Source of the DNA: a virus
Lineage: Duplodnaviria; Heunggongvirae; Uroviricota; Caudoviricetes
Length of the DNA: 37,406 bases
Virus record (IMG/VR): IMGVR_UViG_2778261667_000012
Span: 1-37,406 of that record
Strand: one strand, 5' to 3'
Shown here in pieces: positions 4,282-37,406 of this stretch. The notes below the pieces were generated by a model, which was not told the DNA's origin, did no database searches, and worked only from the letters and a program-made list of their open reading frames with translations. A program made the translations under genes and the position numbers. Position 1 is the first letter of the stretch. Each line of letters starts with the position of its first letter.

Positions 4282-4560
4282 ATGACCAAAGAGTATGCAC
4301 AAGGTGTATTTATCCGTTTTATTGATTTTCGCGGTGAACTGTTATTACGTGCATCAGCTATTGATGCTGTAGCCCAGGCAGAAAAAAAAGCAGTTACTCA
4401 CGTTTATGCGAACAACGCGCAACTGATCGTGGAGCTTCCGTACCAGACCGTTCGCAAAGCCATTAACGAAGCTGAAAAAGCGCGCCAGGCTAATAGCGAT
4501 GAACCCTATATCGAAATTATTTGTATGGATTCAGAAGCTGAAATTAAGAAAGCAGATTAA
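4282..4560 (+). CDS. Hypothetical early protein
   Basis: 92-aa ORF in the early operon; no family recognised. Confidence 0.5.
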   Translation: MTKEYAQGVFIRFIDFRGELLLRASAIDAVAQAEKKAVTHVYANNAQLIVELPYQTVRKAINEAEKARQANSDEPYIEIICMDSEAEIKKAD

Positions 4561-4568
4561 AGGGCGTT

Positions 4569-4814
4569 GTGATGGGCAAAGAATATAAAACTCTCATTAA
4601 CAAAGCACTTGAGCGTTTTTATTTTCGCTTAAGCGCATCAGGCGCTCATGCTGAACGTGCAGCCCGTGACTCATTGACCAGGGCAATCCGGAGTCTGTAT
4701 GACGTGGCTTTTTACGCTGATGATCTGGATGCACTTAACGAACTTTCCGAGCTGATCTGTGCCGCAGAATGCGGGGAACATATTGAACCGTATAAGCTGG
4801 GGAATATTGCATGA
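4569..4814 (+). CDS. Hypothetical early protein
   Basis: 81-aa ORF, tightly packed after the previous gene. Confidence 0.5.
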   Translation: MMGKEYKTLINKALERFYFRLSASGAHAERAARDSLTRAIRSLYDVAFYADDLDALNELSELICAAECGEHIEPYKLGNIA

Positions 4815-4924
4815 GTATATTTATCTCATGGCTTGTTCTGATTATTTCGGTGGCCTGCGCCATTGGGATTATGCGAATTATTCATTCAGTAAAAAAGATT
4901 GAACGCTTTTTCACTGGTGAATAA
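4811..4924 (+). CDS. Small single-TM membrane peptide (37 aa), not in the ORF track
   Basis: ATGA start/stop overlap with the upstream gene. Translation MSIFISWLVLIISVACAIGIMRIIHSVKKIERFFTGE has a hydrophobic helix and a basic tail. Confidence 0.3.
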   Translation: MSIFISWLVLIISVACAIGIMRIIHSVKKIERFFTGE

Positions 4925-5017
4925 CGATACAAATAAAACATCAAATTAAATAAGAAAACGTGAAAACCATCCGTATTAACGGAGGTATTCGCACACGCAA
5001 ATAACGGAGATACAAAA

Positions 5018-5428
5018 ATGCACGCAAAAGAAGAAGGTATCATCAGAGCACTGAAAGAAATTTCAAAGACAGAAAACGAAGTAGCGAAAAAAGCCGTGGC
5101 AAATGCACATATGGACGTCGCAACCCACACACTGATAGTCGCAAGAGTCACGGCAGAAGCAGCCAAAATTATCGCAAAACAGGATGCTGAACTAACGGTT
5201 CTCAGAACACAACCAGTCACCGGACTGGATTTGTCTAACACCGGACGCCTTATTTACACAATTGGCTCGGAGCCACAGCAATACACCATTATCGCCGGAT
5301 TGCAGGACAAATACCTGATTACCCCTTACCCCATAAGAGAGTCAGAAATTCTGACAAATCTCCGCCTGATAGAGCGCTCTCAAGTTGCATTCATTGATGA
5401 CGCCCAACACACCGTATTTAACGCATAG
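5018..5428 (+). CDS. Hypothetical early protein
   Basis: 136-aa ORF with a GGAG RBS upstream. Confidence 0.5.
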   Translation: MHAKEEGIIRALKEISKTENEVAKKAVANAHMDVATHTLIVARVTAEAAKIIAKQDAELTVLRTQPVTGLDLSNTGRLIYTIGSEPQQYTIIAGLQDKYLITPYPIRESEILTNLRLIERSQVAFIDDAQHTVFNA

Positions 5429-5451
5429 GGTTACTGGACAAAGGGGGCGCA

Positions 5452-5655
5452 ATGGCAATTAAGCGTTTTTCCGTCATTCGTTTCACCTCCAGAGGGCGTG
5501 AATACGAAGTTGACGAACGGCTGATTAAAACGATCGACCGTCACCGTTCGCAACCTGACGCGCATCACATTTATCTCACTGACGACACTTACTTCTGCGC
5601 CACCAACGTGGTGCAGGTGAATCTTATCCGACAGGTACAAGAGTCACGCAGATGA
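5452..5655 (+). CDS. Hypothetical small protein
   Basis: 67-aa ORF, translationally coupled (ATGA) to the next gene. Confidence 0.45.
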   Translation: MAIKRFSVIRFTSRGREYEVDERLIKTIDRHRSQPDAHHIYLTDDTYFCATNVVQVNLIRQVQESRR

Positions 5656-5918: not shown

Positions 5919-6037
5919 GCACCATCAACCACCAGGAACCACGCGAACTGGCGACTGCCGTACAAAGAATGTCTACCCAAAAATCACTGCCATTCCGTGT
6001 GAGCCCTGTCCGACGGGTACAGGAGTCACACGGATGA
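5915..6037 (+). CDS. Small hypothetical protein (40 aa), not in the ORF track
   Basis: ATGA-coupled at both ends; its C-terminus (…RRVQESHG) and 3' junction DNA are paralogous to the end of 5452..5655. Confidence 0.25.
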   Translation: MSTINHQEPRELATAVQRMSTQKSLPFRVSPVRRVQESHG

Positions 6038-6234
6038 ACAGAAGGAGAATTACACGCAGACATCGCCGCACGCGCCTGAGCTCCCCGCCAACACTAAAGG
6101 AACTCATTCAAAGCGAGATCGGTGATTTCTTCGCTGGGTTTGGATCACCTGGCGAACCAGAAACACCAGAAGCGATGCAGCGCGAACTCATGATGCGCAT
6201 CGACAACGTTTTCGATTTTTTCCTTAACCAGTAA
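6034..6234 (+). CDS. Hypothetical small protein
   Basis: 66-aa ORF, coupled start. Confidence 0.4.
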   Translation: MNRRRITRRHRRTRLSSPPTLKELIQSEIGDFFAGFGSPGEPETPEAMQRELMMRIDNVFDFFLNQ

Positions 6235-6248
6235 GAGAGCAAATCACA

Positions 6249-6800
6249 ATGAAACTCAAACCAATGGGTACTCCTGGTGTGGCTCCGGCACATGTAAAGC
6301 CATGGACACAGCAGGAGGATGAACTTTTAGCCACGTTATACCACTCCCACACAGCGCCGGAGCTGACAAAGCACCTTCAGAGAACCGAGTCAGCAATACG
6401 AAGCCGCATTCGTCTTTTGCTCTCTCAGGGGGTTATTCACGCCAAACGCCCCCACCTGAGCACAAAAGAACTTAGCATGCTCATCAGGAATCGCCACACA
6501 AAAACTATCCGGGAACTCGCGAATGAGTTGGGGCGCTCGCCATCCACGGTGGAACTGAACCTGAGAAAAAGAGGGTATCGGTTCAGGAAATACGGGGAAC
6601 TCCACCACAGAACCAGATACAGCGATCACCTGGTGGAGTTGGTAACTGAACTGCGTGATGAGAAGGGGATGACATTCAGCGAAATCAGGAAGCACATCCG
6701 GGACACAGCCGGGATATCCCTTAAAAGATGGGTTCCCGCCCGGCTTTACGCACGATATACCGCCGCTGACACCGTGCTTTGCGAACTGCTACCGGACTGA
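6249..6800 (+). CDS. Putative DNA-binding protein (Myb/SANT-like or HTH repeats)
   Basis: 183-aa ORF with PWTQQEDELL-type and …TIRELANELGRSPSTV… helix-turn-helix-like segments; the function is inferred. Confidence 0.4.
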   Translation: MKLKPMGTPGVAPAHVKPWTQQEDELLATLYHSHTAPELTKHLQRTESAIRSRIRLLLSQGVIHAKRPHLSTKELSMLIRNRHTKTIRELANELGRSPSTVELNLRKRGYRFRKYGELHHRTRYSDHLVELVTELRDEKGMTFSEIRKHIRDTAGISLKRWVPARLYARYTAADTVLCELLPD

Positions 6801-27101: not shown

Positions 27102-27733
27102 AACTTCCGGAGATCCCTGAATTCCCGCTCCCCACCTGGATGAATAAAGGCGAGCCGTTAACGCTGGCACATTCATCGCATCGCTACTGGGAAAAGGTAT
27201 ACAGCTGGCTGACGTGGCCACTACAGCAGATTGATGTCGACACCTGCGCAGAACCTTTACTTAACCTGCTGGCTTATCAGCGCAATATCACCCGATTTAA
27301 AGGAGAGCCGGTTTCGTTATTTCGCTTAAGGGTGAAACACGCGTTTATTAACGCTCAGGACTCTGGCGAACGCGCCGGCTTCGAACGCATCTTTAAGCGT
27401 CTTGGCGTGGGAGACGTTAAAACACTGGAACGGCAACTGCAGCATGACTGGGACGTTATTTTACTGCGCATTAATGACACCCAGTTAAGTGAAAACAACG
27501 CGCTGATGATGCAGCTCGTGCGCCAGTATGGTCGTACCTGCAGGCGCTATTTCTTTCAGGTAATCAATACAACCACTGCCCGGCTGACAGCCGGCACATT
27601 TGATGGCCATTACAGGTATCACACAGCAGAAGCAACGGTGAGAAAGGACACCATCTGGTTAACCGCTTCGCTACAGGCAGGACATTACGGCCTGTCCGTG
27701 GAGCATTACACATTACAGGCAGACGAAGCATGA
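27098..27733 (+). CDS. Tail protein I-like (baseplate wedge)
   Basis: …VDTCAEPLLNLLAYQRNITRF… resembles the conserved gpI N-terminal motif as recalled. Confidence 0.65.
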   Translation: MKLPEIPEFPLPTWMNKGEPLTLAHSSHRYWEKVYSWLTWPLQQIDVDTCAEPLLNLLAYQRNITRFKGEPVSLFRLRVKHAFINAQDSGERAGFERIFKRLGVGDVKTLERQLQHDWDVILLRINDTQLSENNALMMQLVRQYGRTCRRYFFQVINTTTARLTAGTFDGHYRYHTAEATVRKDTIWLTASLQAGHYGLSVEHYTLQADEA

Positions 27734-29556
27734 GCACGATTATTACTGAACAGTACGAACACTGGTGTGCGAATCAGCTCATCAGTGGAAAACCTGCGCG
27801 CCCGGATACATTTGTTTTTGCATATATTCCGGGACAGGATGAATCCGCAGAGATCCCCCGCGATGAGATACTCCCTGATGAATCCATGATTCAGTATCGT
27901 GCGCCGGTCACCCAGTACGGCCTCCTGTCGCCGAACGCGACCGCGTTTTCCATCATTCTGGACACGACAGTCGGCGACTTCGAATACAACTGGATCGGTC
28001 TGCTGAACGAAGAAAGCGGCGTGCTCTGCATGATTGCGCACACACCTCGTCAGCAAAAAATTAAAACAGCGAACGGCGTGCAGGGAAACAACCTGATCCG
28101 CACATTTTCCATGGAGTTTGACGGCGCAGCCGCAGCAATGCATATCGATGTCAGTGCTGATGTCTGGCAGATTGATTTCACTGCACGCCTTGCAGGAATG
28201 GATGAGGCCCGCCGGCTGCTGGCGTTTGATCACTACGGTGAAGCCGCTTTTCTGGGGGATGGTTTTCAGGTCAGCTATCAGGATGGTACCGCTACTGTTG
28301 CCGCCGGCGTGGGTTATGTGGGAGGTCTGCGCGTCAGTCTGCGCGAACCTTACAGCCTGCCGGCTGCGGTCGGGGATACCATTTGGATTGATGCAAGCTG
28401 GCAGGGATTTGTTACCGGCGAATGGAATACCGTTTTTACGTTCTGCGCCCGCCAGGAACATGCGTCCTATACAGACGGTAACGGCTTCCGACACTTTGTC
28501 GCGCCACTTGCGAAACTGACATCAGAAGGCTTACAGGATTTACGTCCACAGACGCCCGATGAAGAACAAAGCAATGCACTGGCAGAGCACGAAAAATCCC
28601 GCCGTCATCCGGACGCAACACTGAAGGAGAAAGGCTTTGCGCAGTACAGCAACTCCACCGACAGCGACGCAGAAGACCGCGCCGCCACATCAAAGGCAGT
28701 AAAAGCCGCAATGGATAAGGCAAAAGGCGCTGTTGAGCGTGGCGGCGACACCATGACCGGGGAACTGAAAATCCGTGGTGTTAATGCGCTGAGGATTTTC
28801 AACGAAGCCTTTGGTCTGATTTTTCGTCGTTCGGAAGAGTGCCTGCACCTTATCCCTACCAGTGAAGGTCAGGGCGAGAATGGCGATATTGGTCCACTTC
28901 GGCCGTTCACTATTAATCTGCGGACGGGTGAAATATCCATGTCGCATAAAGTGTCTGTTGGCGGCGGTTCTCAGGTCAATGGTGCGCTGGGTATCGGCGT
29001 TCAGAACGCGCTGGGCGGAAACTCAATTGCTTTCGGGGATAACGATACAGGTATAAAACAAAACGGCGACGGCATTCTGGATGTTTATGCGAATGGACAG
29101 CATGTATTTCGTTTCCAGAATGGTGTGGCGATAGCGTTAAAAAATATTCAGGCCGGAAATGCTAAAAAATTCACGTTATCCAGCGCCAACAACTCCACGA
29201 AAAACGCAACGTTTAATTTATGGGGTAATTCATCCCGACCTGTAGTTGCAGAGCTTGGTGATGATTCCGGCTGGCATTTTTACAGTCAGAGGAATACGGA
29301 TAACAGTATAACGTTCGCTGTAAACGGGCAGATGGTTCCATCAAACTACGGAAACTTTGATGCCCGCTATCAGACCAAAACAGGCGGTGTGCAGGATGTG
29401 CGTCTGGGAAGCGCCATTGGTATTGGGCGTGGCGGGAATGCACCATCAGGTCACCTTATCAGCGGTCTTGATGGTGGTGAAAGTATGGACTGGGCCAATG
29501 CCCGCCCGGTGCAGGTTCTGATTAATGGCGTCTGGCGGAATGTAGCGAGTTTGTAA
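27730..29556 (+). CDS. Tail fibre protein 1
   Basis: 608 aa; the central …EHEKSRRHPDATLKEKGFAQYSNSTDS…TSKAVKAAMD… matches the conserved P2 gpH-type fibre segment as recalled. Confidence 0.8.
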   Translation: MSTIITEQYEHWCANQLISGKPARPDTFVFAYIPGQDESAEIPRDEILPDESMIQYRAPVTQYGLLSPNATAFSIILDTTVGDFEYNWIGLLNEESGVLCMIAHTPRQQKIKTANGVQGNNLIRTFSMEFDGAAAAMHIDVSADVWQIDFTARLAGMDEARRLLAFDHYGEAAFLGDGFQVSYQDGTATVAAGVGYVGGLRVSLREPYSLPAAVGDTIWIDASWQGFVTGEWNTVFTFCARQEHASYTDGNGFRHFVAPLAKLTSEGLQDLRPQTPDEEQSNALAEHEKSRRHPDATLKEKGFAQYSNSTDSDAEDRAATSKAVKAAMDKAKGAVERGGDTMTGELKIRGVNALRIFNEAFGLIFRRSEECLHLIPTSEGQGENGDIGPLRPFTINLRTGEISMSHKVSVGGGSQVNGALGIGVQNALGGNSIAFGDNDTGIKQNGDGILDVYANGQHVFRFQNGVAIALKNIQAGNAKKFTLSSANNSTKNATFNLWGNSSRPVVAELGDDSGWHFYSQRNTDNSITFAVNGQMVPSNYGNFDARYQTKTGGVQDVRLGSAIGIGRGGNAPSGHLISGLDGGESMDWANARPVQVLINGVWRNVASL

Positions 29557-29558
29557 TC

Positions 29559-30113
29559 ATGATGCACTTAAAGAATCTTACGGTACAAAACCCTAAAACA
29601 ATTGAGCAATACCAGCTGGCGCGGCAGCATAAATTTTTATTGTGGCTGTTCTCAGATGATGGCCAGGAATGGCACGAAGCCCAGGAAAAATTTCAACCAG
29701 ACACTCTGAAAGTTATTTATGTCGAAACTGGCGAAGTGGTCTGGGTCGGAAAAGACATCACCTCAATCTGCCCGGAAAATAAAAGTGTGATTGAGTTGCC
29801 GGATATTACCGCTAATCGTCGCATTGAGGCGTCGGGATACTGGTTTTACCGCGACGATAAATTTGTCTTCGACTACAAACTTAAAGCGGAAGATGAACGC
29901 GATGCCCTGTTACAACGGGTCAGCATCATGACCAGCGAATGGGAAAAGGACCTGCTGCTGGGATTAATCAGCGACGAAGACAGGGAGAAATTGAAAGCCT
30001 GCCGTATTTATACAAAAACGTTACGGGAGATGACATTCAGCCAGGTTACAGATAAAGCATCGTATGCCGCGATTGTATGGCCAGAATTACCGCAGAACAT
30101 TAGCGAGAATTAA
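29559..30113 (+). CDS. Tail fibre assembly chaperone 1
   Basis: 184 aa immediately after fibre 1, with a C-terminal …AIVWPELP… Tfa-type motif. Confidence 0.7.
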   Translation: MMHLKNLTVQNPKTIEQYQLARQHKFLLWLFSDDGQEWHEAQEKFQPDTLKVIYVETGEVVWVGKDITSICPENKSVIELPDITANRRIEASGYWFYRDDKFVFDYKLKAEDERDALLQRVSIMTSEWEKDLLLGLISDEDREKLKACRIYTKTLREMTFSQVTDKASYAAIVWPELPQNISEN

Positions 30114-30119
30114 GAAGTA

Positions 30120-32057
30120 ATGAGCGCACTGTTGACGAAAGCATTTGAAAAGTGGGTTGCTGAATGCACAGCCAGTAATTTACCTGCGCGCCCTGACGCT
30201 ATTATTTTTGCCCTGATGGAGCGGGAACCAACGCGCGAAGATAATACCGTTCCGGAAGAAAAAATCACATATGCTGTGAATGAACTGACCTACGGCCAGT
30301 TAAGCCCGAACAATATTGTGTGTAGCGCGGTTGTTCCTGATGACTGTGCATTCAGTTATGACTGGATTTGTCTCATCCATCAGGCCAGCGGAACACTATG
30401 CGGCGTAATAAAAACGCCTGTTCGACAAAAAGTGACAGGCGAGTCACTTATTCGTAATTTCACGATTATATACAGTGGCATTGCTCAGGCTGCGCAAATT
30501 ACCGTTCCTCCACAGAGCTGGCAGGTAGATCTTTTCCCTGAAATAAACAAAAAAGCGCCACTGGACAGCCCGGCGTTCACCGGCACGCCAACCACACCAA
30601 CTCCGCCAGACGATGCGGTCGGGCTGGAGATGGCGAACGCAGCGTTTGTTCGCAAACTGCTCGCCGCACTGGTTGACTCATCACCGGAAGCCCTGGACAC
30701 ACTGAACGAACTGGCAGCGGCGCTGGGCAATGACCCGAACTTTTCGACGACGGTCATTAACGCGCTGGCGGGTAAACAACCGCTGAACGATTTGCTGACG
30801 GCAATCAGTGAACTGACGAAACGGGCAGATAATCTTCTGTACTTTAATCAGGACGGGAATGTTTCTCTCTCTCCGCTGTCAGAAAAAGCCCGCGCATTAC
30901 TGGCACTGGACACACCTGAAGCCATGCGCACGGAACTTGAACTGAAAGCGGCTGCAACGATGGAGTCCCAGAGCAATATCCGCGACCGCACACCAGGCAG
31001 GCTGGCGCTGCCGGGGGCATTTGGATACGGAATGACAGAGCACGAGGGGATGGTGCTCGGCATTACAAATCTTGATGAGCTTGCGTTGATATGCATGAAC
31101 ACAGAACCAGGTCGATATTACACATCATCAATGTCATCAGGTGATTTAACTGGTGTAGTCGAATTTATCTGGCTGGACAACTGGCAGAATGACAAAACCA
31201 GCCAGACAGCAACAAAACTTATTCTGTTTTACGGAAGAGACGGACGTATTCTTTCCAGCGTTCGCGGCTCTGACTACGGAGCCCCTGTTGTATGGAGAGA
31301 TCTTACCCCATTAACTGGCAACACAACTGTAAAAGACGCGCAATCGGATATCCGGGATCGTACACCTGGCAGGCTGGCGCTGTCCGGCATGTATGGATTC
31401 GGCCAGGCATTTACCAGCACCGAAGCCCTGGCATTTAACGGGCAGGCCGATTTTGCTGAATGGCTGAAAGAGGCCACCCCGGGGCGTTATGCGGTCAGTA
31501 TTGCGGACTCTTCCACACTACTGGCGGGCACCACGAAATTTAACGGCATCATTGATGTGATGTGGTCACCCTTTGATAACGACGAGTCAGACACAACGCG
31601 CAAATTCAAAACGCTGCTGTGTTTTAACCAGTATTACGAAGGTGAGCACAGTATTCATCGCCTGACTTACCGCTGGAGTGGAAACAACTGGAATGCAACA
31701 GTAAGCCCCATTATTTACGACGGCGATTCGCTGGCGTTCCTGCTGTCCAGGACAGCTGGCTCAGGCTCATATTTCAAATACCCGGCAGTGGGTGTTCCGG
31801 TGCTGGCTGTTTATCGCGGAACAACTTCCGGGGATAAAGAAATCAAAATTGGCCTGGGTGATGTGGTGCAGGGGTCACTACTGGGCGGAGTTAATCTTTC
31901 GTGCACAATATCTTCTGCGGGGGCTGGCTCCTACGGTTCCACACCGAGTGCAGGAGCTACAGGGTACACTTTTCCGGGGCGTTATATGGCGTTATCCGGG
32001 GTCAGGGACTCTTACGGAACAAGCGGTCGTATCTGCCTGTTTGTGCGCATCGAGTAA
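30120..32057 (+). CDS. Tail fibre protein 2 (paralogous N-terminus, different distal part)
   Basis: 645 aa; the N-terminal about 150 aa is homologous to fibre 1 (…LPARPD…, …L(I/C)RNF(T/S)…). Contains an internal repeat …IRDRTPGRLAL… twice. Confidence 0.7.
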   Translation: MSALLTKAFEKWVAECTASNLPARPDAIIFALMEREPTREDNTVPEEKITYAVNELTYGQLSPNNIVCSAVVPDDCAFSYDWICLIHQASGTLCGVIKTPVRQKVTGESLIRNFTIIYSGIAQAAQITVPPQSWQVDLFPEINKKAPLDSPAFTGTPTTPTPPDDAVGLEMANAAFVRKLLAALVDSSPEALDTLNELAAALGNDPNFSTTVINALAGKQPLNDLLTAISELTKRADNLLYFNQDGNVSLSPLSEKARALLALDTPEAMRTELELKAAATMESQSNIRDRTPGRLALPGAFGYGMTEHEGMVLGITNLDELALICMNTEPGRYYTSSMSSGDLTGVVEFIWLDNWQNDKTSQTATKLILFYGRDGRILSSVRGSDYGAPVVWRDLTPLTGNTTVKDAQSDIRDRTPGRLALSGMYGFGQAFTSTEALAFNGQADFAEWLKEATPGRYAVSIADSSTLLAGTTKFNGIIDVMWSPFDNDESDTTRKFKTLLCFNQYYEGEHSIHRLTYRWSGNNWNATVSPIIYDGDSLAFLLSRTAGSGSYFKYPAVGVPVLAVYRGTTSGDKEIKIGLGDVVQGSLLGGVNLSCTISSAGAGSYGSTPSAGATGYTFPGRYMALSGVRDSYGTSGRICLFVRIE

Positions 32058-32070
32058 CGGGGAATAAAAC

Positions 32071-32652
32071 ATGAAAATCAGAGCAGTAAAAGGCATCAGA
32101 AACGCCCATTATCTCGAAAATGGTGCGGTTGACTGCGAGGTGTTATTTGAAGGTGAAACGGAATTCGTCCCGTATACCGCCATGCAGGACGATAGCGCCC
32201 CGACAGGCCAGCGCATCTGGGAAGAGTTACAGAGCGGCAAATGGGGAGAAATAACCCCGTTCACCGTCACGCCGGAACTTATCGCCGCGGCGAAGGATGC
32301 CAAAAAGCGGGAAATAGAGGTGTGGCGCACAGAACAGGAGGCGCAGCCGTTCACGTTCGAATGGAACGGTCGTAGCTGGAATGCTGGCCCCAGCTCACTG
32401 GCCCGTATCTATCCGGTGGTAATGGCATCAAAATCCGACACAGCGCGGGACGTTATGACATGGGGTGATGCCGATAATCAGCAAGTGAAGATGTCGATGA
32501 CAGAGCTTGAGGAGCTGGCTACAGCTATGGCGCAGGCGCAGGTTAACCGCAATGATGAAATTTATCGACGTCAGCGACAGATGAAGGACGTGCTGGATGG
32601 CCTGAATAATCTTGCCGACATCCGCGCTTTTCAGAGTGGAGAGTCAGAATGA
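32071..32652 (+). CDS. Putative tail fibre assembly/chaperone protein 2
   Basis: 193 aa immediately after fibre 2; weak family resemblance, so the call is mainly positional. Confidence 0.35.
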   Translation: MKIRAVKGIRNAHYLENGAVDCEVLFEGETEFVPYTAMQDDSAPTGQRIWEELQSGKWGEITPFTVTPELIAAAKDAKKREIEVWRTEQEAQPFTFEWNGRSWNAGPSSLARIYPVVMASKSDTARDVMTWGDADNQQVKMSMTELEELATAMAQAQVNRNDEIYRRQRQMKDVLDGLNNLADIRAFQSGESE

Positions 32653-33362
32653 AATGGGAAAAGGCAATTCTGCGTCCGTCAGCCATGCACATTAAATGCT
32701 CTGTGGTTTGCCTTCATCCATGGTCAGAAAATACCGGAAACATCAAACCATCGGGGCGTTATCTCAGCCCCGAAAATGCTGTATCTGCACTTTTACCCTA
32801 TCTGAAAGAAAGCACAGAAAAAGACATTGTGGCGCTGTTATTTTGCGCCCCTTCTGCTGGCGAGTTTTTATCACTCGCCAGGCAATTTTCAGGCGCATTT
32901 CCGTTGCCGGAGGTGGGACGAATGTCCCGCATGATCTCCAGCCAGCTTTCACTGGCCATCAGCAGAATGCAAATCCCCGCCAGACCGGCAACATCACTTC
33001 CGGAACCGATAATGCTGTCGACACAGACCACTCGCAGCATGTCGCTGGCAGCAACCATTGCACAGGCAGCCACTCCTGCCGCCACATCACCGGAAACATT
33101 GTCATCATCGCTGCATCAGTTCATGAATGCGAGAGATAAAGCCTTACAGGAAATCGCTGATCAGCAGGCCGCACTCCGGCAAAAATTTTGCCCGGTGTGG
33201 CGCTTTTGCTACAAGGGAGCTCTTAGCCAGGCTGCAGTGCTGATACAAAAAAACATCCCACACCCAGAGTGGGTTTTTACAGCTGTGATGCTGTTCGTCG
33301 GCGATAATCTCTCATCACTAAGGGAAGCACTACATGACCCAGATGATTGTCCTTGCGCTTGA
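32649..33362 (+). CDS. Hypothetical protein (possible tail/baseplate component)
   Basis: 237 aa, ATGA-coupled to the upstream gene; no family recognised. Confidence 0.4.
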   Translation: MKWEKAILRPSAMHIKCSVVCLHPWSENTGNIKPSGRYLSPENAVSALLPYLKESTEKDIVALLFCAPSAGEFLSLARQFSGAFPLPEVGRMSRMISSQLSLAISRMQIPARPATSLPEPIMLSTQTTRSMSLAATIAQAATPAATSPETLSSSLHQFMNARDKALQEIADQQAALRQKFCPVWRFCYKGALSQAAVLIQKNIPHPEWVFTAVMLFVGDNLSSLREALHDPDDCPCA

Positions 33363-33909
33363 CGGGGAAGCCATTCTGCTGCGCAACATCACCGTCAGCG
33401 CCACCATGCAACTACCGGACAAAGATATGTCCGGACAGTCAACCAGCACCACGAGCGCCCAGCAGGGAAACAAGGCTAAAGAGCTGCGCGTGTCGGGGGT
33501 TATTGATTTTAACGATGAAGCTATTCTGACCCGTATTTTTCAGCTTGCGGAGGCAACAGAAAGCAACGGTGCTAAAAAAACATATCGCATTGCTAACGCT
33601 ACCGCGAAGGCAATCAATATGCGACAGGGGGTATTTTCTGGTGGCATTGATGCCACGGAACAACAGGGAAAAATGCACTGGCAGGTCACCTTTACTCTCA
33701 GGGAAAAATTAAGCGTGCCAGAGAAAGCATCAGCACGTAGCGGTTCACAAAAAACCATCGCCAGACAGCAGACCCAGAATGGCAGCGAACAGGCACCAGA
33801 CAAAGGCATGAATACGCAAAGTTCGTTCTGGAAAAAAATCAATGATGCCGTTGGCTCTGGTCTGGATGCTGTTGGCATTGGGAGCGTGAAAGAGGAAGGG
33901 AAAACATGA
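33334..33909 (+). CDS. Hypothetical protein (possible tail/baseplate component)
   Basis: 191 aa with an AAGGGAAG RBS; overlaps the upstream gene by 29 nt. Confidence 0.4.
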   Translation: MTQMIVLALDGEAILLRNITVSATMQLPDKDMSGQSTSTTSAQQGNKAKELRVSGVIDFNDEAILTRIFQLAEATESNGAKKTYRIANATAKAINMRQGVFSGGIDATEQQGKMHWQVTFTLREKLSVPEKASARSGSQKTIARQQTQNGSEQAPDKGMNTQSSFWKKINDAVGSGLDAVGIGSVKEEGKT

Positions 33910-35603
33910 AATTGATACAACGCTGCATGATTAATGGCGAACGGGTGGAAATTGCCGATATAAACCTTGTTCTTACCCTGAATGCTGCCGGTCGTGGCTT
34001 CATTTCTGTTAACAATCTGTCACCCGAACACAGCCTTGCCGGCGCAATGGTACAAATTGATCTCGGCCGTGACGGTGAAGCATGGCGCTATTTCTCCGGC
34101 TACATTGAGCGCGATCAACCTGCTGAAAATGGCTCACGTCGCCTTTTTATCCGTGAAGCAGCTGCTGTGCTGGATTTTGATTTCCCTTGCTCCATGCAAC
34201 ACCCGACGTTGCGGGGGGTACTCGATAATCTGGGGCGACAAAGCGGTATCGTTTTTATCACTCCGGATGCGGATTATGCCAGTATACCAACTCCCTACAT
34301 CACCCACAGCGGCAGCGGAGCACAACTGCTCAGCCAACTGGGGCGAGCATTCAGTATCAACGATTACGTCTGGCACCCTATGCCGGACGGTTCTGTATTT
34401 GTGGGAAGCGCAGCTGATTCACGATTTGCCAGTATTACAATGCCGGATATTCCGCAACAGTACACACTCGGGCAAAGCGGCGGAAACAGCATCGACATCA
34501 TGTTTATGGAAACTGTGCGACCGGGCGTGAACCTACCGGCCGGGCGCATTACCCGTGTAGCCCTCAACAACGAGAAAATGACCCTGACATGGGAGCGCCT
34601 TACCGCCACGGGTAGCCCTGTTTCCAAATCACCATTACGCAGACAAATGGAAACACAGTTCCCGGAACTGGTCAGCGGTACGCTACATACCCGGCTGGCG
34701 CGCGTCATTGCACCAACGGAGCCCGCCACCCTGGGCGATGTGGCCGACAGTTTCCGCCCACGCTACGCCGTCGATGTGCAGTTGCTTGATGAGAACGGCA
34801 ACGATAAAAGCGATACGCCCGTTTACCCGGCAGTACCGCTCCCCGTCCCCATGGCTGGCAGTGAGGCGGGATGTTTTGCCTACCCGCCGGCAGGCACCAT
34901 CGTGGAAATATCCAACATTGAAGGACGACCGGATAAACCTGTCATCAGGCAAATCTTACCCGCTGGTCATAACCTGCCTGATGTAAAGCCCGGCGAACAA
35001 TTGCAACAACAGCGCGCAGAAGTGTTTCAGCGTGTCACGACTGACGGAAGCTGGCACAGAGAAACCGACCAGCAAATCAGGGAGCATTCAGCCAGGCGAA
35101 CCATTAACAGCGATCAGGAAGAACGCACAACAACAACCAGAACAACAACAGTACAGGCAAACGACATAACCAGCGTTCTGGGAACCAGCAAGCTGATGAC
35201 AGGTCAGACAGAACACATTACTACTGGCCATTATGCGATCGCAGCCGGTGAGCATATCCAGATGGTAGCGCAGGATTTGCTGACTAAACTCAAAGGGGCG
35301 ACATCCACCATCGAGCATAACCTCACCGAAAACGTGGGAGGCCGCAGAACATGCCGGGCGGACGGCGGCCTGGAATTTACCGCCCCGACTGTATTTATTG
35401 GGCGCGGTGGCTCACGGGAAAAATCCGGACTTAATCTGCTGACGTTGTTGATTGATATTCTGGATCTGGTTCAGTTGCTGGCCACACACACTGCAAACCA
35501 CACCCACAGCAACACTGGCGCACCAACAAACAGCAGCGAACTTGCCGCAGACGCCCAACAGGCTACGAGCCTGCGCGAAAAATACGGCGACCTTATCGCC
35601 TAA
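33906..35603 (+). CDS. Putative baseplate hub/central spike protein (gpD/gpV-like fusion?)
   Basis: 565 aa with a beta-helix-like repetitive C-terminal region and a His-rich apex (…THTANHTHSNTGAP…) reminiscent of P2 gpV-type spike tips. Confidence 0.45.
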   Translation: MKLIQRCMINGERVEIADINLVLTLNAAGRGFISVNNLSPEHSLAGAMVQIDLGRDGEAWRYFSGYIERDQPAENGSRRLFIREAAAVLDFDFPCSMQHPTLRGVLDNLGRQSGIVFITPDADYASIPTPYITHSGSGAQLLSQLGRAFSINDYVWHPMPDGSVFVGSAADSRFASITMPDIPQQYTLGQSGGNSIDIMFMETVRPGVNLPAGRITRVALNNEKMTLTWERLTATGSPVSKSPLRRQMETQFPELVSGTLHTRLARVIAPTEPATLGDVADSFRPRYAVDVQLLDENGNDKSDTPVYPAVPLPVPMAGSEAGCFAYPPAGTIVEISNIEGRPDKPVIRQILPAGHNLPDVKPGEQLQQQRAEVFQRVTTDGSWHRETDQQIREHSARRTINSDQEERTTTTRTTTVQANDITSVLGTSKLMTGQTEHITTGHYAIAAGEHIQMVAQDLLTKLKGATSTIEHNLTENVGGRRTCRADGGLEFTAPTVFIGRGGSREKSGLNLLTLLIDILDLVQLLATHTANHTHSNTGAPTNSSELAADAQQATSLREKYGDLIA

Positions 35604-35945
35604 TCACCGGGCATAAAATCCACATAAACGCCCCATCACGCAACGCACGGTTCAGGCCGTGCGTTTTCATATCTGCCACCTGATTAATGCGTTCTGCGTG
35701 CCATTCCGGCGCTGTATGCGCACACCACGTAAACGGTGTGACGTAAAGCGTGAGGTGACGTAAACCGCGCTACCCCCTCCAACCCGCGGGTTTTGTGTCG
35801 AAACACTTTTTCAGTTTTCTGCCGTGCAAAAATGACCGTCAGCCCGCGCTGCGACTGAGGGAAAGGCGAGGATCTGAAATTTCACGTTTTGAAATTTTTT
35901 GCAGTTTTCAGAGAGGTTTTTACGATCGCACAAATGGTAGGAGCA

Positions 35946-36083
35946 ATGAAACCGCATGATATTAAAAGAGTTTTCATACTTTACGCGAGACGAGAAACGA
36001 TCACGAAAGGATCGCATCAAAAAATCGTCAAACAACGAAGCCTGACGCAGCACGGCCTGCGTAAAATTAAGAGTCAAAATTAA
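35946..36083 (+). CDS. Small basic hypothetical ORF (45 aa)
   Basis: AGGAG 4-5 nt upstream of the ATG at 35946; translation MKPHDIKRVFILYARRETITKGSHQKIV…; low support. Confidence 0.2.
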   Translation: MKPHDIKRVFILYARRETITKGSHQKIVKQRSLTQHGLRKIKSQN

Positions 36084-36433
36084 ACTGAAAAAAGGATCAA
36101 TACCGCGCCTCGATCACGCATGACGATCTACACAGCAACAGGGCGAAAAAAAACCGGCGCGAACGCCGGCGGAAGCATGTATCAAATGCGTGACTGAATA
36201 ATGTCTACGGTCGGGAATTTTACATCAGAAGGCTGATAAGTCTCAACGGATTGAAACAAGGGAAAAAACCAGGCTAGAATTCGCGCGGGTGCCTTTCGGC
36301 TGATGGCTGGAGGGAATACCTGAAGGCCGGATGTGGAAAGGCCCCGGAAAACATTTTCTGTTTAACCGAGGCCCTAACCGCATTACCTTCGCAAGTGATA
36401 GGTTAGCGCCTCTCCAATAAAGGAGCAAGCGCT

Positions 36434-36574
36434 ATGTCGCAAAAATCGCTTATGGCCATCACGTTCTGCGTGACGGCAATCCTCATCATCTGGATGCTGC
36501 ACGGTTCGCTGTGTGAAATACGGATGAGCTTCTGGGGAGCGGAGTTTGCGGCGTTCTTACAGTGTAAACAGTAA
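36434..36574 (+). CDS. Hok/Gef-family type I toxin (46 aa), not in the ORF track
   Basis: AAGGAG RBS. Translation MSQKSLMAITFCVTAILIIWMLHGSLCEIRMSFWGAEFAAFLQCKQ has an N-terminal TM helix, the LCEIR motif and an E(V/F)AAF C-terminal motif typical of Hok proteins. A 9-bp-stem hairpin follows at about 36586-36607. Confidence 0.55.
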   Translation: MSQKSLMAITFCVTAILIIWMLHGSLCEIRMSFWGAEFAAFLQCKQ

Positions 36575-36714
36575 GGAAACCGCGACGGGGGAGCAATCCC
36601 CCGTCAATCGGTTGCTAAGGCAAGGTCGTAAAGGCACCCTATCTCACAGGCATGTCCCCACGGCGCAAATTTTGTCTCCCTTATGAATAGGGACGACATC
36701 TGCAGTTCGTCTAC

Positions 36715-37230
36715 TTACTTAGGTTTTGCAGAAAACCACAATCCTGCCACTTGAGTAGCAATCATTGTATAACGCACTCGCTGGGTATCAAAGCGGGCCC
36801 CATTTTCATCATGATCAGCGGCAGCTTTAATCATCTTAGAAAGATGTTCGCCACGACTTTCTGCTGGAATTTCCGGTGAAAATATTTTCATCAAAACAGC
36901 CTGCAATAACAACGCCCCTAAAGCCCCGTCACCATTAGGCGATGCAAAAATAGCCGTCACATCTTTTATTTTCTTACTACCCTTATCCACAGCAACAACC
37001 AAGGCGGTCGTTTCACTTAAATTAATTTGTGCAACATCATTAACCTCACCATGTGAAATACTTACCTTTTTACTCAATTTAAACCCAAGAGCCTTAGAGG
37101 TGCTTTTTAATTCACTGTTAAGTTTTTTATTAAATTGTTCTGCTGTTAGATCAAATGTTGAAGAGGCTAAAGATAAACCTGACCAACAAATTAGAAAGAA
37201 CAAAACCACATATTTAATAACTCTACTCAT
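36715..37230 (-). CDS. Secreted/periplasmic hypothetical protein (Sec signal peptide)
   Basis: 171 aa; N-terminus [24 protein letters not shown]… is signal-peptide-like. The gene is AT-rich. Confidence 0.5.
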
Positions 37231-37406
37231 TCACTACACACCTTTTTAGAGCGGCTGATTGAGCCATCATTACAAACAAATTTTCCATCCTTAGTACAAT
37301 GTGACACCCCACCTTTACTACCAGAACATGGCTTCCGCCCACGCCCAGCATCAGCGTTCATTGACAAAACGAAACCGATACAAGCAATCACTAAAAATTT
37401 GTACAT
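37227..37406 (-). CDS. Small secreted Cys-rich peptide (59 aa); start codon at the window edge
   Basis: Translation [59 protein letters not shown]: signal peptide plus a mature region with 4 Cys. ATGA-coupled to the downstream gene. Confidence 0.35.

What the first reader, a model, noticed from the sequence alone, without database searches (positions are those of the whole stretch)
32071..35603. Four translationally coupled genes after the second fibre cassette, ending in a His-rich-apex hub/spike protein
Of the four overlapping genes following the fibre cassettes, the last (565 aa) looks like a central spike/hub, with a beta-helix-like C-terminal region and a …HTANHTHSNTGAP… apex. The three upstream genes (193, 237 and 191 aa) have no clear family. 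In P2-type genomes the position just after the fibre chaperone is a known cargo hotspot, so these could be either missing baseplate parts (gpU/gpD-like) or accessory genes.
Basis: inference. Interest (0 to 1): 0.45.

Follow-up and report, generated by a model that had tools for sequence, protein, structure and literature searches.

The report
HP1-type phage baseplate core genes
These four genes are ordinary parts of an HP1-like prophage tail: a chaperone for the second tail fibre, two conserved small baseplate-associated proteins, and a fused hub-plus-spike protein that punctures the host envelope. They are not cargo genes.

Summary
The four ORFs exist exactly as described: 193, 237, 191 and 565 aa, with internal junctions overlapping by 4, 29 and 4 nt. 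The window is an HP1-type (Peduoviridae) prophage, about 98% identical to one in E. coli A36.

- **193-aa gene.** It is a DUF4376 protein and belongs to the second fibre cassette as its predicted chaperone. The unit fibre1–Tfa–fibre2–DUF4376 is shared with phage phiP27.
- **237-, 191- and 565-aa genes.** These are orthologues of HP1 orf33, orf34 and orf35. This block ends the late operon in HP1, K139, phiO18P, ESSI-2 and SI7.
- **191-aa protein.** It is a member of Pfam PF25759. It is the best candidate for the tube initiator, by position and by elimination, but homology to gpU could not be shown.
- **237-aa protein.** Its model is confident, but it has no structural relative in the PDB or BFVD. 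Its role is unknown.

There is no evidence for cargo. Interest is low.

The parts
30120..32057 (+). Second tail fibre (645 aa). This is context: it is the partner of the DUF4376 gene that follows.
   Evidence: PF12571 N-terminal collar/attachment domain. Its C-terminal part is about 30% identical to phiP27 L56.
32071..32652 (+). 193-aa DUF4376 protein, the predicted tail-fibre assembly chaperone of fibre 2. It belongs to the fibre cassette.
   Evidence: PF14301 at 57.8 bits (cut-off 25) and phrog_1141 at 3.5e-86. It is 74% identical to phiP27 L57, which follows fibre L56. It is not similar to HP1 orf32 or SI7 gp21, which occupy the same slot. DUF4376 proteins encoded downstream of fibre genes are experimentally required chaperones (PMC7289586, PMC7882524).
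32649..33362 (+). 237-aa orthologue of HP1 orf33. Conserved but fast-evolving protein of unknown fold family; probably a minor baseplate or assembly component.
33334..33909 (+). 191-aa orthologue of HP1 orf34 ('baseplate complex protein'). Candidate tube initiator, i.e. the positional analogue of P2 gpU.
   Evidence: PF25759 at 182 bits (cut-off 27). HP1 orf34 46% identity (7e-37), SI7 gp23 51%. There are 296 cluster representatives in the large protein library. It lies directly upstream of the hub gene and overlaps it, as gpU does with gpD in P2. Homology to gpU was not demonstrated.
33906..34601 (+). Hub domain of the 565-aa protein (residues 1-232): gp27 / P2 gpD / Mu gp44-type baseplate hub.
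34758..34961 (+). OB-fold domain (residues ~285-352) of the gp5/gpV/VgrG type.
34962..35405 (+). Probable trimeric beta-helix shaft (residues ~353-500). This assignment is inferred.
   Evidence: Gp5_trimer_C hits in 24/41 family members and Gp5_C hits in 12/41. Profile hits to T4 gp5 beta-helix fragments at E 0.05-0.1. The monomer AF2 model has low confidence here, as would be expected for an intertwined trimer.
35421..35603 (+). C-terminal helix - HxH loop - helix (residues 506-565, plus the stop codon). HTH is at nt 35499-35507. Predicted metal-binding tip.
   Evidence: AF2 predicts helices at 511-530 and 543-560 with block pLDDT 78-82. H532, H534 and T537 are invariant, and the loop is the best-conserved part of the C-terminal third (0.80 against 0.51-0.57 for the flanks). 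P2 gpV carries a comparable 'LHTHKHPGDSGG'. The H-T-H motif was already noted as the predicted iron site in the Smhb1 spike (PMC8537503).

Best explanation
The region is the end of the late (tail) operon of an HP1-type P2-like prophage.

(1) The 193-aa DUF4376 protein is the assembly chaperone of the second tail fibre. It travels with that fibre as a cassette.

(2) The 237-, 191- and 565-aa genes are the HP1 orf33-orf34-orf35 block. This block supplies the central parts of the baseplate, which P2 encodes elsewhere as gpU, gpD and gpV.

(3) The 565-aa protein is a single-chain fusion, comparable in architecture to VgrG. It has an N-terminal hub domain, then an OB fold, then a probable trimeric beta-helix, and it ends in a helical hairpin. 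The turn of that hairpin carries an invariant His-x-His motif, presumably a metal site as in gpV.

(4) As a trimer on the tail axis, this protein would seed baseplate assembly. It would bind the tube initiator, most probably a ring of the 191-aa protein, and it would be surrounded by the DUF2590/gpJ/gpI wedges. On sheath contraction it would be driven through the outer membrane.

(5) The 237-aa protein is a conserved, low-copy companion whose role is unknown. It may be a glue or adaptor component, or an assembly factor.

Shown here: orthology, synteny, the hub fold, the OB-fold and spike similarity, and conservation of the HxH motif. Inferred: trimer and hexamer stoichiometry, metal binding, the tube-initiator role of the 191-aa protein, and chaperone activity of the 193-aa protein.
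For: - **Prophage type.** P2-family capsid module, with gpR, gpS, DUF2586 sheath, HP1-Orf24 tube, tape-measure protein, DUF2590, gpJ and gpI upstream. No other candidate for gpU, gpX, gpD or gpV exists in the operon.
- **Synteny.** The order fibre / chaperone / orf33 / orf34 / orf35 is found in HP1, SI7, K139, phiO18P and ESSI-2, and in phi3 with the last gene split into hub and spike ORFs.
- **Orthology.** Pairwise BLASTP gives 1.6e-17, 7e-37 and 3e-130 to HP1 orf33, orf34 and orf35.
- **Two modules.** Hub and spike are separate ORFs in phi3 and C5a, with the break at residues ~231-244.
- **Published agreement.** An HHpred table gives ACA1 gp48 = gpD and gp49 = gpV, and states that the two are fused in HP1. 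Both were detected in ACA1 virions, as was the orf33 homologue (PMC10612066).
- **HxH motif.** Invariant in the family, and gpV has a comparable motif.
- **DUF4376 gene.** PF14301 hit, the phiP27 L54-L57 module, and published chaperone experiments.
- **Against cargo.** No PADLOC hit and uniform GC and GC3 across the operon.
Against: - The window protein itself is below the Pfam cut-off for Phage_base_V (15.7 against 23.8 bits). No family member hits Phage_GPD, Phage_spike or the gpV Apex model at E<=1.
- The beta-helix region has low AF2 confidence in the monomer model. The trimeric tip geometry was not modelled.
- Homology of orf34 to gpU is not supported by my tests. None of 71 members hit PF06995, and the hhalign score of 14.3 (P 0.19) is within the range of unrelated controls.
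- The ACA1 orf34 homologue was not detected in virions.
- orf33 is absent from C5a, so it may not be an essential structural part.
Confidence: 0.85

Rival explanations
1. The three upstream genes (193, 237 and 191 aa) are accessory or cargo genes (morons, defence or lysogenic-conversion genes) inserted after the fibre cassette, as happens at the Z/fun locus of P2.
For: The position follows a fibre chaperone. RefSeq annotates the genes as hypothetical. orf33 evolves fast (48-90% identity among close relatives) and is missing in C5a.
Against: orf33 and orf34 are syntenic and overlap their neighbours in HP1-type phages of Haemophilus, Vibrio, Aeromonas, Cronobacter, Salmonella and Pseudomonas. 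No defence model hits them. GC and GC3 match the rest of the operon. No internal promoter or convincing terminator was found. The ACA1 orf33 homologue is detected in virions. The 193-aa gene has a fibre-chaperone domain and moves together with its fibre.
Confidence: 0.04
2. orf34 (191 aa) is not the tube initiator. Instead, orf33 or an unrecognised domain of another protein fills that role, and orf34 and/or orf33 are non-virion assembly factors or glue-type (gpX-like) peripheral parts.
For: There is no significant profile similarity of orf34 to gpU or to any PDB chain. The ACA1 orf34 homologue was not detected by virion mass spectrometry, whereas the orf33 homologue was. The authors of that paper marked the gpU assignment as uncertain.
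Against: - orf34 is universally present next to the hub gene, including in C5a where orf33 is absent. It has the same adjacency to the hub gene that gpU has to gpD in P2.
- orf34 has a ~125-residue conserved core plus a variable linker and a short conserved C-terminal motif. This layout resembles gpU, which has a core plus a C-terminal contact helix (bioRxiv 10.64898/2026.09.14.750843).
- One orf34 homologue weakly hits a tail-tube Pfam model (E 0.005).
Confidence: 0.25
3. The 565-aa protein is an orphan T6SS VgrG or a tail-associated lysozyme (T4 gp5-like enzyme), not a phage hub-spike.
For: Weak hits to VgrG models and structures. One database homologue is named 'Baseplate hub subunit and tail lysozyme'.
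Against: VgrG TIGRFAM scores are 16-19 bits against cut-offs of 122-186. No lysozyme or other enzymatic domain is found in this protein or in 41 homologues. The gene is the last one of a complete prophage tail operon, with no T6SS genes nearby. It is full-length orthologous to HP1 orf35.
Confidence: 0.02

Closest known systems
Haemophilus phage HP1 orf33-orf34-orf35 (and the equivalents K139 orf37-39, phiO18P gp44-46, ESSI-2 gp05/03/01, SI7 gp22-24)
   Same: Same order, same position at the end of the late operon, the same habit of overlapping reading frames, and full-length sequence homology (25%, 46% and 38% identity to HP1; 29%, 51% and 48% to SI7).
   Different: The host is Escherichia. 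A second fibre cassette lies upstream. The chaperone slot is filled by a DUF4376 protein, not by the Caudo_TAP type of SI7 and ESSI-2 or by HP1 orf32.
Phage P2 gpD (hub) plus gpV (spike); pyocin R2 PA0628 plus PA0616
   Different: Here the two are fused into one chain. The hub part is much shorter (~232 aa against 387 aa). The Pfam models Phage_GPD, Phage_spike and Apex do not hit. The HxH motif sits between two predicted alpha-helices, 31 residues before the end, not at the end of a beta-structured apex. In P2 the genes lie in two separate operons.
T6SS VgrG, Afp8 and Pvc8 (gp27-like hub fused to a gp5-like spike)
   Different: The context is a phage. There is no PAAR partner gene. The protein carries its own HxH tip. 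Its scores are far below the VgrG family cut-offs.
Phage Mu gp44 (hub) and gp45 (spike)
   Different: They are separate genes in Mu, and there is no detectable sequence similarity.
[quoted passage not shown]
   Same: C-terminal DUF4376 domain, similar size (~190 aa), and a gene placed immediately downstream of the fibre. 74% identity to phiP27 L57, which lies in an identical fibre-Tfa-fibre-DUF4376 module.
   Different: Chaperone activity has not been tested for this protein or for phiP27 L57. PHROG annotates the family as 'tail fiber protein'.
P2 gpU (tube initiator, PF06995)
   Same: For the 191-aa protein: similar size, a gene directly upstream of and overlapping the hub gene, and a conserved core plus a C-terminal short motif.
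   Different: There is no significant sequence or profile similarity in my tests, and the fold was not determined here.

Membership tests
HP1 orf35-type hub-spike protein (phrog_2258) | Full-length homology to HP1 orf35 and its relatives | tested here: met
   phrog_2258 at 3.6e-232 over residues 1-565. BLASTP to HP1 orf35: 38% identity over residues 1-564, 3e-130. SI7 gp24: 48% identity.
HP1 orf35-type hub-spike protein (phrog_2258) | Last gene of the late operon, preceded by orf33 and orf34 homologues | tested here: met
   Same order in HP1, SI7, K139, phiO18P and ESSI-2. In the window only a hok-like ORF follows.
Baseplate hub (gp27 / P2 gpD / Mu gp44 fold) | Hub fold in the N-terminal region | tested here: met
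Pfam Phage_GPD (PF05954) | HMM match above the gathering score | tested here: not met
   No hit in this protein or in any of 41 homologues at E<=1. P2 gpD itself hits at 6e-27.
P2 gpV-type spike (Phage_base_V + Phage_spike + Apex) | OB-fold domain (PF04717) | tested here: inconclusive
P2 gpV-type spike (Phage_base_V + Phage_spike + Apex) | Phage_spike trimer (PF18715) and Apex motif (PF18946) HMM matches | tested here: not met
   No hit in 41 homologues at E<=1. gpV itself hits both models.
P2 gpV-type spike (Phage_base_V + Phage_spike + Apex) | Conserved His-x-His near the C-terminus that binds iron in the trimer | tested here: inconclusive
   The motif is present and invariant (H532, H534). 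Metal binding and trimer geometry cannot be tested with these tools.
T6SS VgrG (TIGR01646 / TIGR03361) | HMM match above cut-off and a T6SS gene context | tested here: not met
   19.2 and 16.1 bits against cut-offs of 121.8 and 186.35. The context is a prophage tail operon.
Pfam HP1_ORF34 baseplate complex protein (PF25759) | HMM match above the gathering score (191-aa protein) | tested here: met
   182.2 bits against a cut-off of 27, covering residues 2-175. All 71 aligned homologues hit the model.
P2 gpU tube initiator (PF06995) | Sequence or profile homology to gpU (191-aa protein) | tested here: not met
   None of 71 homologues hit PF06995 at E<=10. hhalign against an 11-sequence gpU alignment scores 14.3 (P 0.19), within the range of unrelated controls at 11-23. 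A published HHpred match was flagged as uncertain by its authors.
P2 gpU tube initiator (PF06995) | Tube-protein fold forming a hexameric ring between hub and tube | not tested
No model of the 191-aa protein was made.
DUF4376 tail-fibre chaperone (PF14301) | C-terminal DUF4376 domain, and a gene immediately downstream of a fibre gene | tested here: met
   57.8 bits against a cut-off of 25, residues 73-177. The start lies 13 nt after the stop of fibre 2. phiP27 has the same arrangement.
DUF4376 tail-fibre chaperone (PF14301) | Required for folding or function of the cognate fibre | not testable with these tools
   Shown experimentally only for V22 gp27 and the CJIE1 gene.
HP1 orf33 family (phrog_1677) | Homology to HP1 orf33 and a position between the fibre chaperone and orf34 | tested here: met
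   phrog_1677 at 3.5e-39. HP1 orf33 1.6e-17 and SI7 gp22 5e-30. Conserved M1, W3 and the 'YLSPxNA' motif.
Anti-phage defence or cargo gene | Match to a known defence protein model, or atypical composition, or its own transcription signals | tested here: not met
   No PADLOC hit. GC is 0.50-0.54, like the neighbouring genes. There are no internal promoter-like sites.

The most novel reading that the evidence does not exclude
Two things remain open and could be new at the structural level. (a) The orf33 family (237 aa) may be a baseplate or virion component with a fold not seen in any solved contractile-tail structure, and specific to HP1-type phages. (b) The spike tip of HP1-type phages may be an alpha-helical hairpin, forming a six-helix bundle in the trimer, that presents an Fe/Zn(His)6 site at its turn. 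That would be a different way of building the membrane-piercing apex from the beta-structured apex of P2 gpV, phi92 gp138 and Mu gp45, or from a PAAR cap.
Probability: 0.3. Interest if true: 0.4.

Novelty: new member of a known kind. Interest (0 to 1): 0.15.

Why it matters
The main value is for annotation. In RefSeq E. coli genomes these genes are mostly labelled 'hypothetical protein'. They can instead be labelled fibre chaperone, HP1 orf33-like protein, baseplate complex protein (candidate tube initiator) and hub-spike fusion. The result also removes a false lead: there is no cargo locus here.

A modest open point remains. No HP1-type baseplate has been solved. The orf33 family has no structural relative, and the helical HxH tip may differ from the gpV apex. 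An HP1-type virion structure would therefore add something to the catalogue of minimal contractile tails.

Tried and rejected
- **PDB sequence searches.** Searches with each protein and with family profiles gave nothing significant for the 193-, 237- and 191-aa proteins. For the 565-aa protein they gave only sub-threshold VgrG and gp5 hits.
- **NDUEG3 hit.** The 237-aa protein hit PDB chain 8iuf_E3 (NDUEG3) at whole-sequence E 1.5e-4. The two matched stretches are repeats that each score only E ~2, and the family profile did not reproduce the hit. I treated it as chance.
- **gpU homology of orf34.** A Pfam scan of 71 homologues and hhalign against a gpU alignment I built from 11 phages gave no signal above unrelated controls.
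- **Vibrio phage XM1 as a structural proxy.** It is not an HP1-type phage. Its gp11 and gp12 match orf33 and orf34 in size and gene order, but no structural match to the orf33 model was found.
- **Other searches.** PADLOC found nothing. NCBIfam gave only weak VgrG hits. Rfam found nothing in 31900-37406.
- **Literature.** The K139 genome paper (PMC135448) is not held. Searches for PF25759 or HP1_ORF34 found no source paper.
- **Tail lysozyme reading.** Rejected, because no enzymatic domain is present.
Full report
**Observation.**
The ORF list gives four + strand ORFs at exactly the stated coordinates: 32071-32652 (193 aa), 32649-33362 (237 aa), 33334-33909 (191 aa) and 33906-35603 (565 aa). 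The junctions read from the sequence are an ATGA overlap, a 29-nt overlap and another ATGA overlap. Each start is preceded by a purine-rich Shine-Dalgarno-like stretch. The first gene starts 13 nt after the stop of the second fibre gene. The motif HTANHTHSNTGAP lies at residues 528-540, and the HTH corresponds to nt 35499-35507. All four ORFs have strong homologues, so they are real genes. Translational coupling is a reasonable inference from the overlaps but was not measured.

**Context.**
The region is 98% identical to a chromosomal segment of E. coli A36. At least 80% of it is present in 48 of 5426 complete E. coli genomes, mostly annotated as hypothetical proteins. The surrounding genes form a complete P2-family prophage with the HP1 gene order:
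- portal, terminase, scaffold, P2-type capsid and gpL;
- gpR, gpS, DUF2586 sheath and HP1-Orf24 tube;
- holin, M15 endolysin, tail chaperone and tape-measure protein;
- DUF2590 (the gpW-like sheath initiator), gpJ and gpI;
- then the fibres.

No gene upstream can be assigned to gpU, gpX, gpD or gpV.

**Synteny.**
A tblastn search with the 565-aa protein finds 75 phage records, all HP1-type Peduoviridae, from Haemophilus, Pasteurella, Vibrio, Aeromonas, Pseudomonas, Pseudoalteromonas, Cronobacter, Salmonella, Yersinia and Escherichia. In HP1, SI7, K139, phiO18P and ESSI-2 the late operon ends with fibre, fibre-assembly gene, a ~240-297-aa gene, a ~157-187-aa gene and a ~533-574-aa gene. BLASTP links the window proteins to these genes:

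| Window protein | HP1 | SI7 |
|---|---|---|
| 237 aa | orf33, 25% identity, 1.6e-17 | gp22, 29%, 5e-30 |
| 191 aa | orf34, 46%, 7e-37 | gp23, 51% |
| 565 aa | orf35, 38% over the full length, 3e-130 | gp24, 48% |

The 29-nt overlap between the second and third genes is the same in SI7 and ESSI-2. The 193-aa protein is not similar to HP1 orf32 or SI7 gp21, which occupy the same slot.

**The 193-aa gene.**
It carries a DUF4376 domain (PF14301, 57.8 bits) and matches phrog_1141. The slot after the fibre is filled by different chaperone types in different HP1-type phages: Caudo_TAP in SI7, ESSI-2 and phiO18P, and a weak DUF4376 match in phi3. The whole four-gene unit of fibre 1, Caudo_TAP chaperone, fibre 2 and the DUF4376 protein is shared with the unrelated myophage phiP27 (L54-L57). 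The identities are 68%, 87%, 30% (C-terminal part) and 74%. DUF4376 proteins encoded downstream of fibre genes have been shown to be required chaperones in Alteromonas phage V22 and in the Campylobacter CJIE1 prophage (PMC7289586, PMC7882524). This gene therefore belongs to the second fibre cassette, not to the block that follows it. Its chaperone function is inferred from the domain and the position.

**The 565-aa gene.**
An AF2 model built from 41 homologues is confident for residues 1-~270 (pLDDT 76-95), moderate for ~285-350, and poor for ~350-500. It ends with two helices (511-530 and 543-560) flanking the HTH loop. The evidence by region is as follows.
- **Sequence level.** The signals are weak but consistent. 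Phage_base_V is hit by all 41 homologues (best 7e-6; the window protein at E 0.019, below cut-off). Gp5_trimer_C is hit by 24 and Gp5_C by 12. None hits Phage_GPD, Phage_spike or Apex. The family profile also touches VgrG OB regions and T4 gp5 beta-helix fragments in the PDB at E 0.01-0.1.
- **Two modules.** In phi3 and C5a the two halves are separate ORFs in different frames, with the break at residues ~231-244. This matches the domain boundary in the model.
- **Published agreement.** The ACA1 genome paper reached the same assignment by HHpred. [quoted passage not shown] Its virion mass spectrometry detected both parts (PMC10612066).

**The tip.**
H532, H534 and T537 are invariant, and the loop is the best-conserved part of the C-terminal third (0.80 mean column identity against 0.51-0.57 in the flanks). 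H528 is not conserved. P2 gpV ends with LHTHKHPGDSGG. The H-T-H motif was already pointed out as the predicted iron site in the spike of the HP1-type phage Smhb1 (PMC8537503). The iron site is visible in the new P2 virion structure (bioRxiv 10.64898/2026.09.14.750843).

Unlike gpV, the motif here is preceded by a helix with a heptad-like hydrophobic pattern. It is followed by 31 residues that form a second amphipathic helix. My inference is a helical hairpin that forms a six-helix bundle in the trimer, with the six histidines at its turn. This was not modelled.

**The 191-aa gene.**
It is a clear member of Pfam PF25759, 'HP1 ORF34 baseplate complex protein' (182 bits). The family has 296 representatives at 50% clustering in the 1.84-billion-protein library.

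It has a conserved ~125-residue core, a variable low-complexity linker and a short conserved C-terminal motif. It sits directly upstream of the hub gene and overlaps it, as gpU does with gpD in P2. In P2, gpU is the hexameric tube initiator on top of the gpD trimer, with a C-terminal contact helix.

By elimination and by position, orf34 is the best candidate for the tube initiator. Homology could not be shown:
- none of 71 homologues hit PF06995;
- there is no PDB relative;
- hhalign against a gpU alignment built from 11 phages scores no better than unrelated controls.

The ACA1 authors also flagged their gpU match as uncertain, and they did not detect the protein in virions.

**The 237-aa gene.**
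The family (phrog_1677) is found in enterobacterial, Yersinia, Serratia, Aeromonas, Vibrio, Haemophilus and Pseudomonas HP1-type phages. It includes an unannotated ORF in phi3. It is absent from C5a.

It seems to diverge faster than the hub-spike. For hits whose longest contig has the same length, and so probably lie on the same contig, the identities are 69% against 86% and 63% against 73%. Conserved positions are mostly Pro, Leu, Gly, Ser and Asn, including a 'YLSPxNA' motif, with no catalytic-looking set.

**Cargo hypothesis.**
It is not supported. There are no PADLOC hits. GC and GC3 are uniform across the operon. There are no internal promoter-like sites. The synteny is deep. The P2 hotspot between G and FI (the fun(Z) locus) has no equivalent here, because the gene order is of the HP1 type.

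**Verdict.**
The region is the ordinary end of an HP1-type tail operon plus the chaperone of an extra fibre cassette. It is a new member of a known kind, and interest is low. The open points are the fold and role of orf33, the fold of orf34, and the possibly helical HxH tip.

Noticed in passing
window 27730-32652: The prophage carries two complete fibre cassettes. Both fibres have the N-terminal baseplate-attachment domain PF12571, and their N-termini are 37% identical to each other. The four-gene unit is homologous as a block to phiP27 L54-L57 (68%, 87%, 30% and 74% identity). Other HP1-type phages examined have a single fibre. This suggests a horizontally acquired dual receptor-binding module.
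   Followed up: partly
window 36434-36574 (+): A 46-aa Hok/Gef-like ORF lies about 830 nt downstream of the spike gene. The first ~1040 nt after the spike gene are conserved (about 93-94%) in many E. coli genomes, where a Hok/Gef gene is annotated. No Rfam family reached its gathering score in this stretch.
   Followed up: partly
window ~36650-37406, including the ORF at 36715-37230 (-): The last ~760 nt of the window were not covered by the best matches in complete E. coli genomes: none of the listed matches extends beyond query position ~1050 of 1803. The stretch encodes a 171-aa protein with a signal-peptide-like N-terminus. The host or integration site may therefore differ from that of E. 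coli A36, where serS follows.
   Followed up: no
L007 (Pseudomonas phage phi3, KT887559) ~4550-5462 and 6001-6693; L008 (phage C5a) 6001-6669: The public annotations miss the orf33 homologue and the gpD-like hub ORF of phi3, and they label its orf34 homologue 'nucleoid DNA-binding protein'. C5a also lacks an annotation for its hub ORF.
   Followed up: partly
protein P0297 (397 aa, from the representative library): A single predicted polypeptide joins an orf33-like region (residues 45-198; hhalign probability 94.7% to the orf33 alignment) to a complete orf34 domain (residues 211-365). Its first ~44 residues look like an out-of-frame translation, so this may be a frameshift artefact and not a natural fusion.
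   Followed up: partly
window 33334-33408 versus 33906-33980 (N-termini of the 191-aa and 565-aa proteins): hhalign of the orf34 family against the hub-spike family aligns the first 25 residues of both (score 23.3, P 0.027). This is the highest of my control comparisons but is not significant. It could reflect a shared N-terminal beta-strand motif of tube-like domains.
   Followed up: no
proteins P0330 and P0347 (orf34 homologues): Some orf34 family members carry an insertion of roughly 30-70 residues inside the conserved core, between the helix and the following 'Y-x-I' strand. The core therefore tolerates an inserted loop or domain at that point.
   Followed up: no
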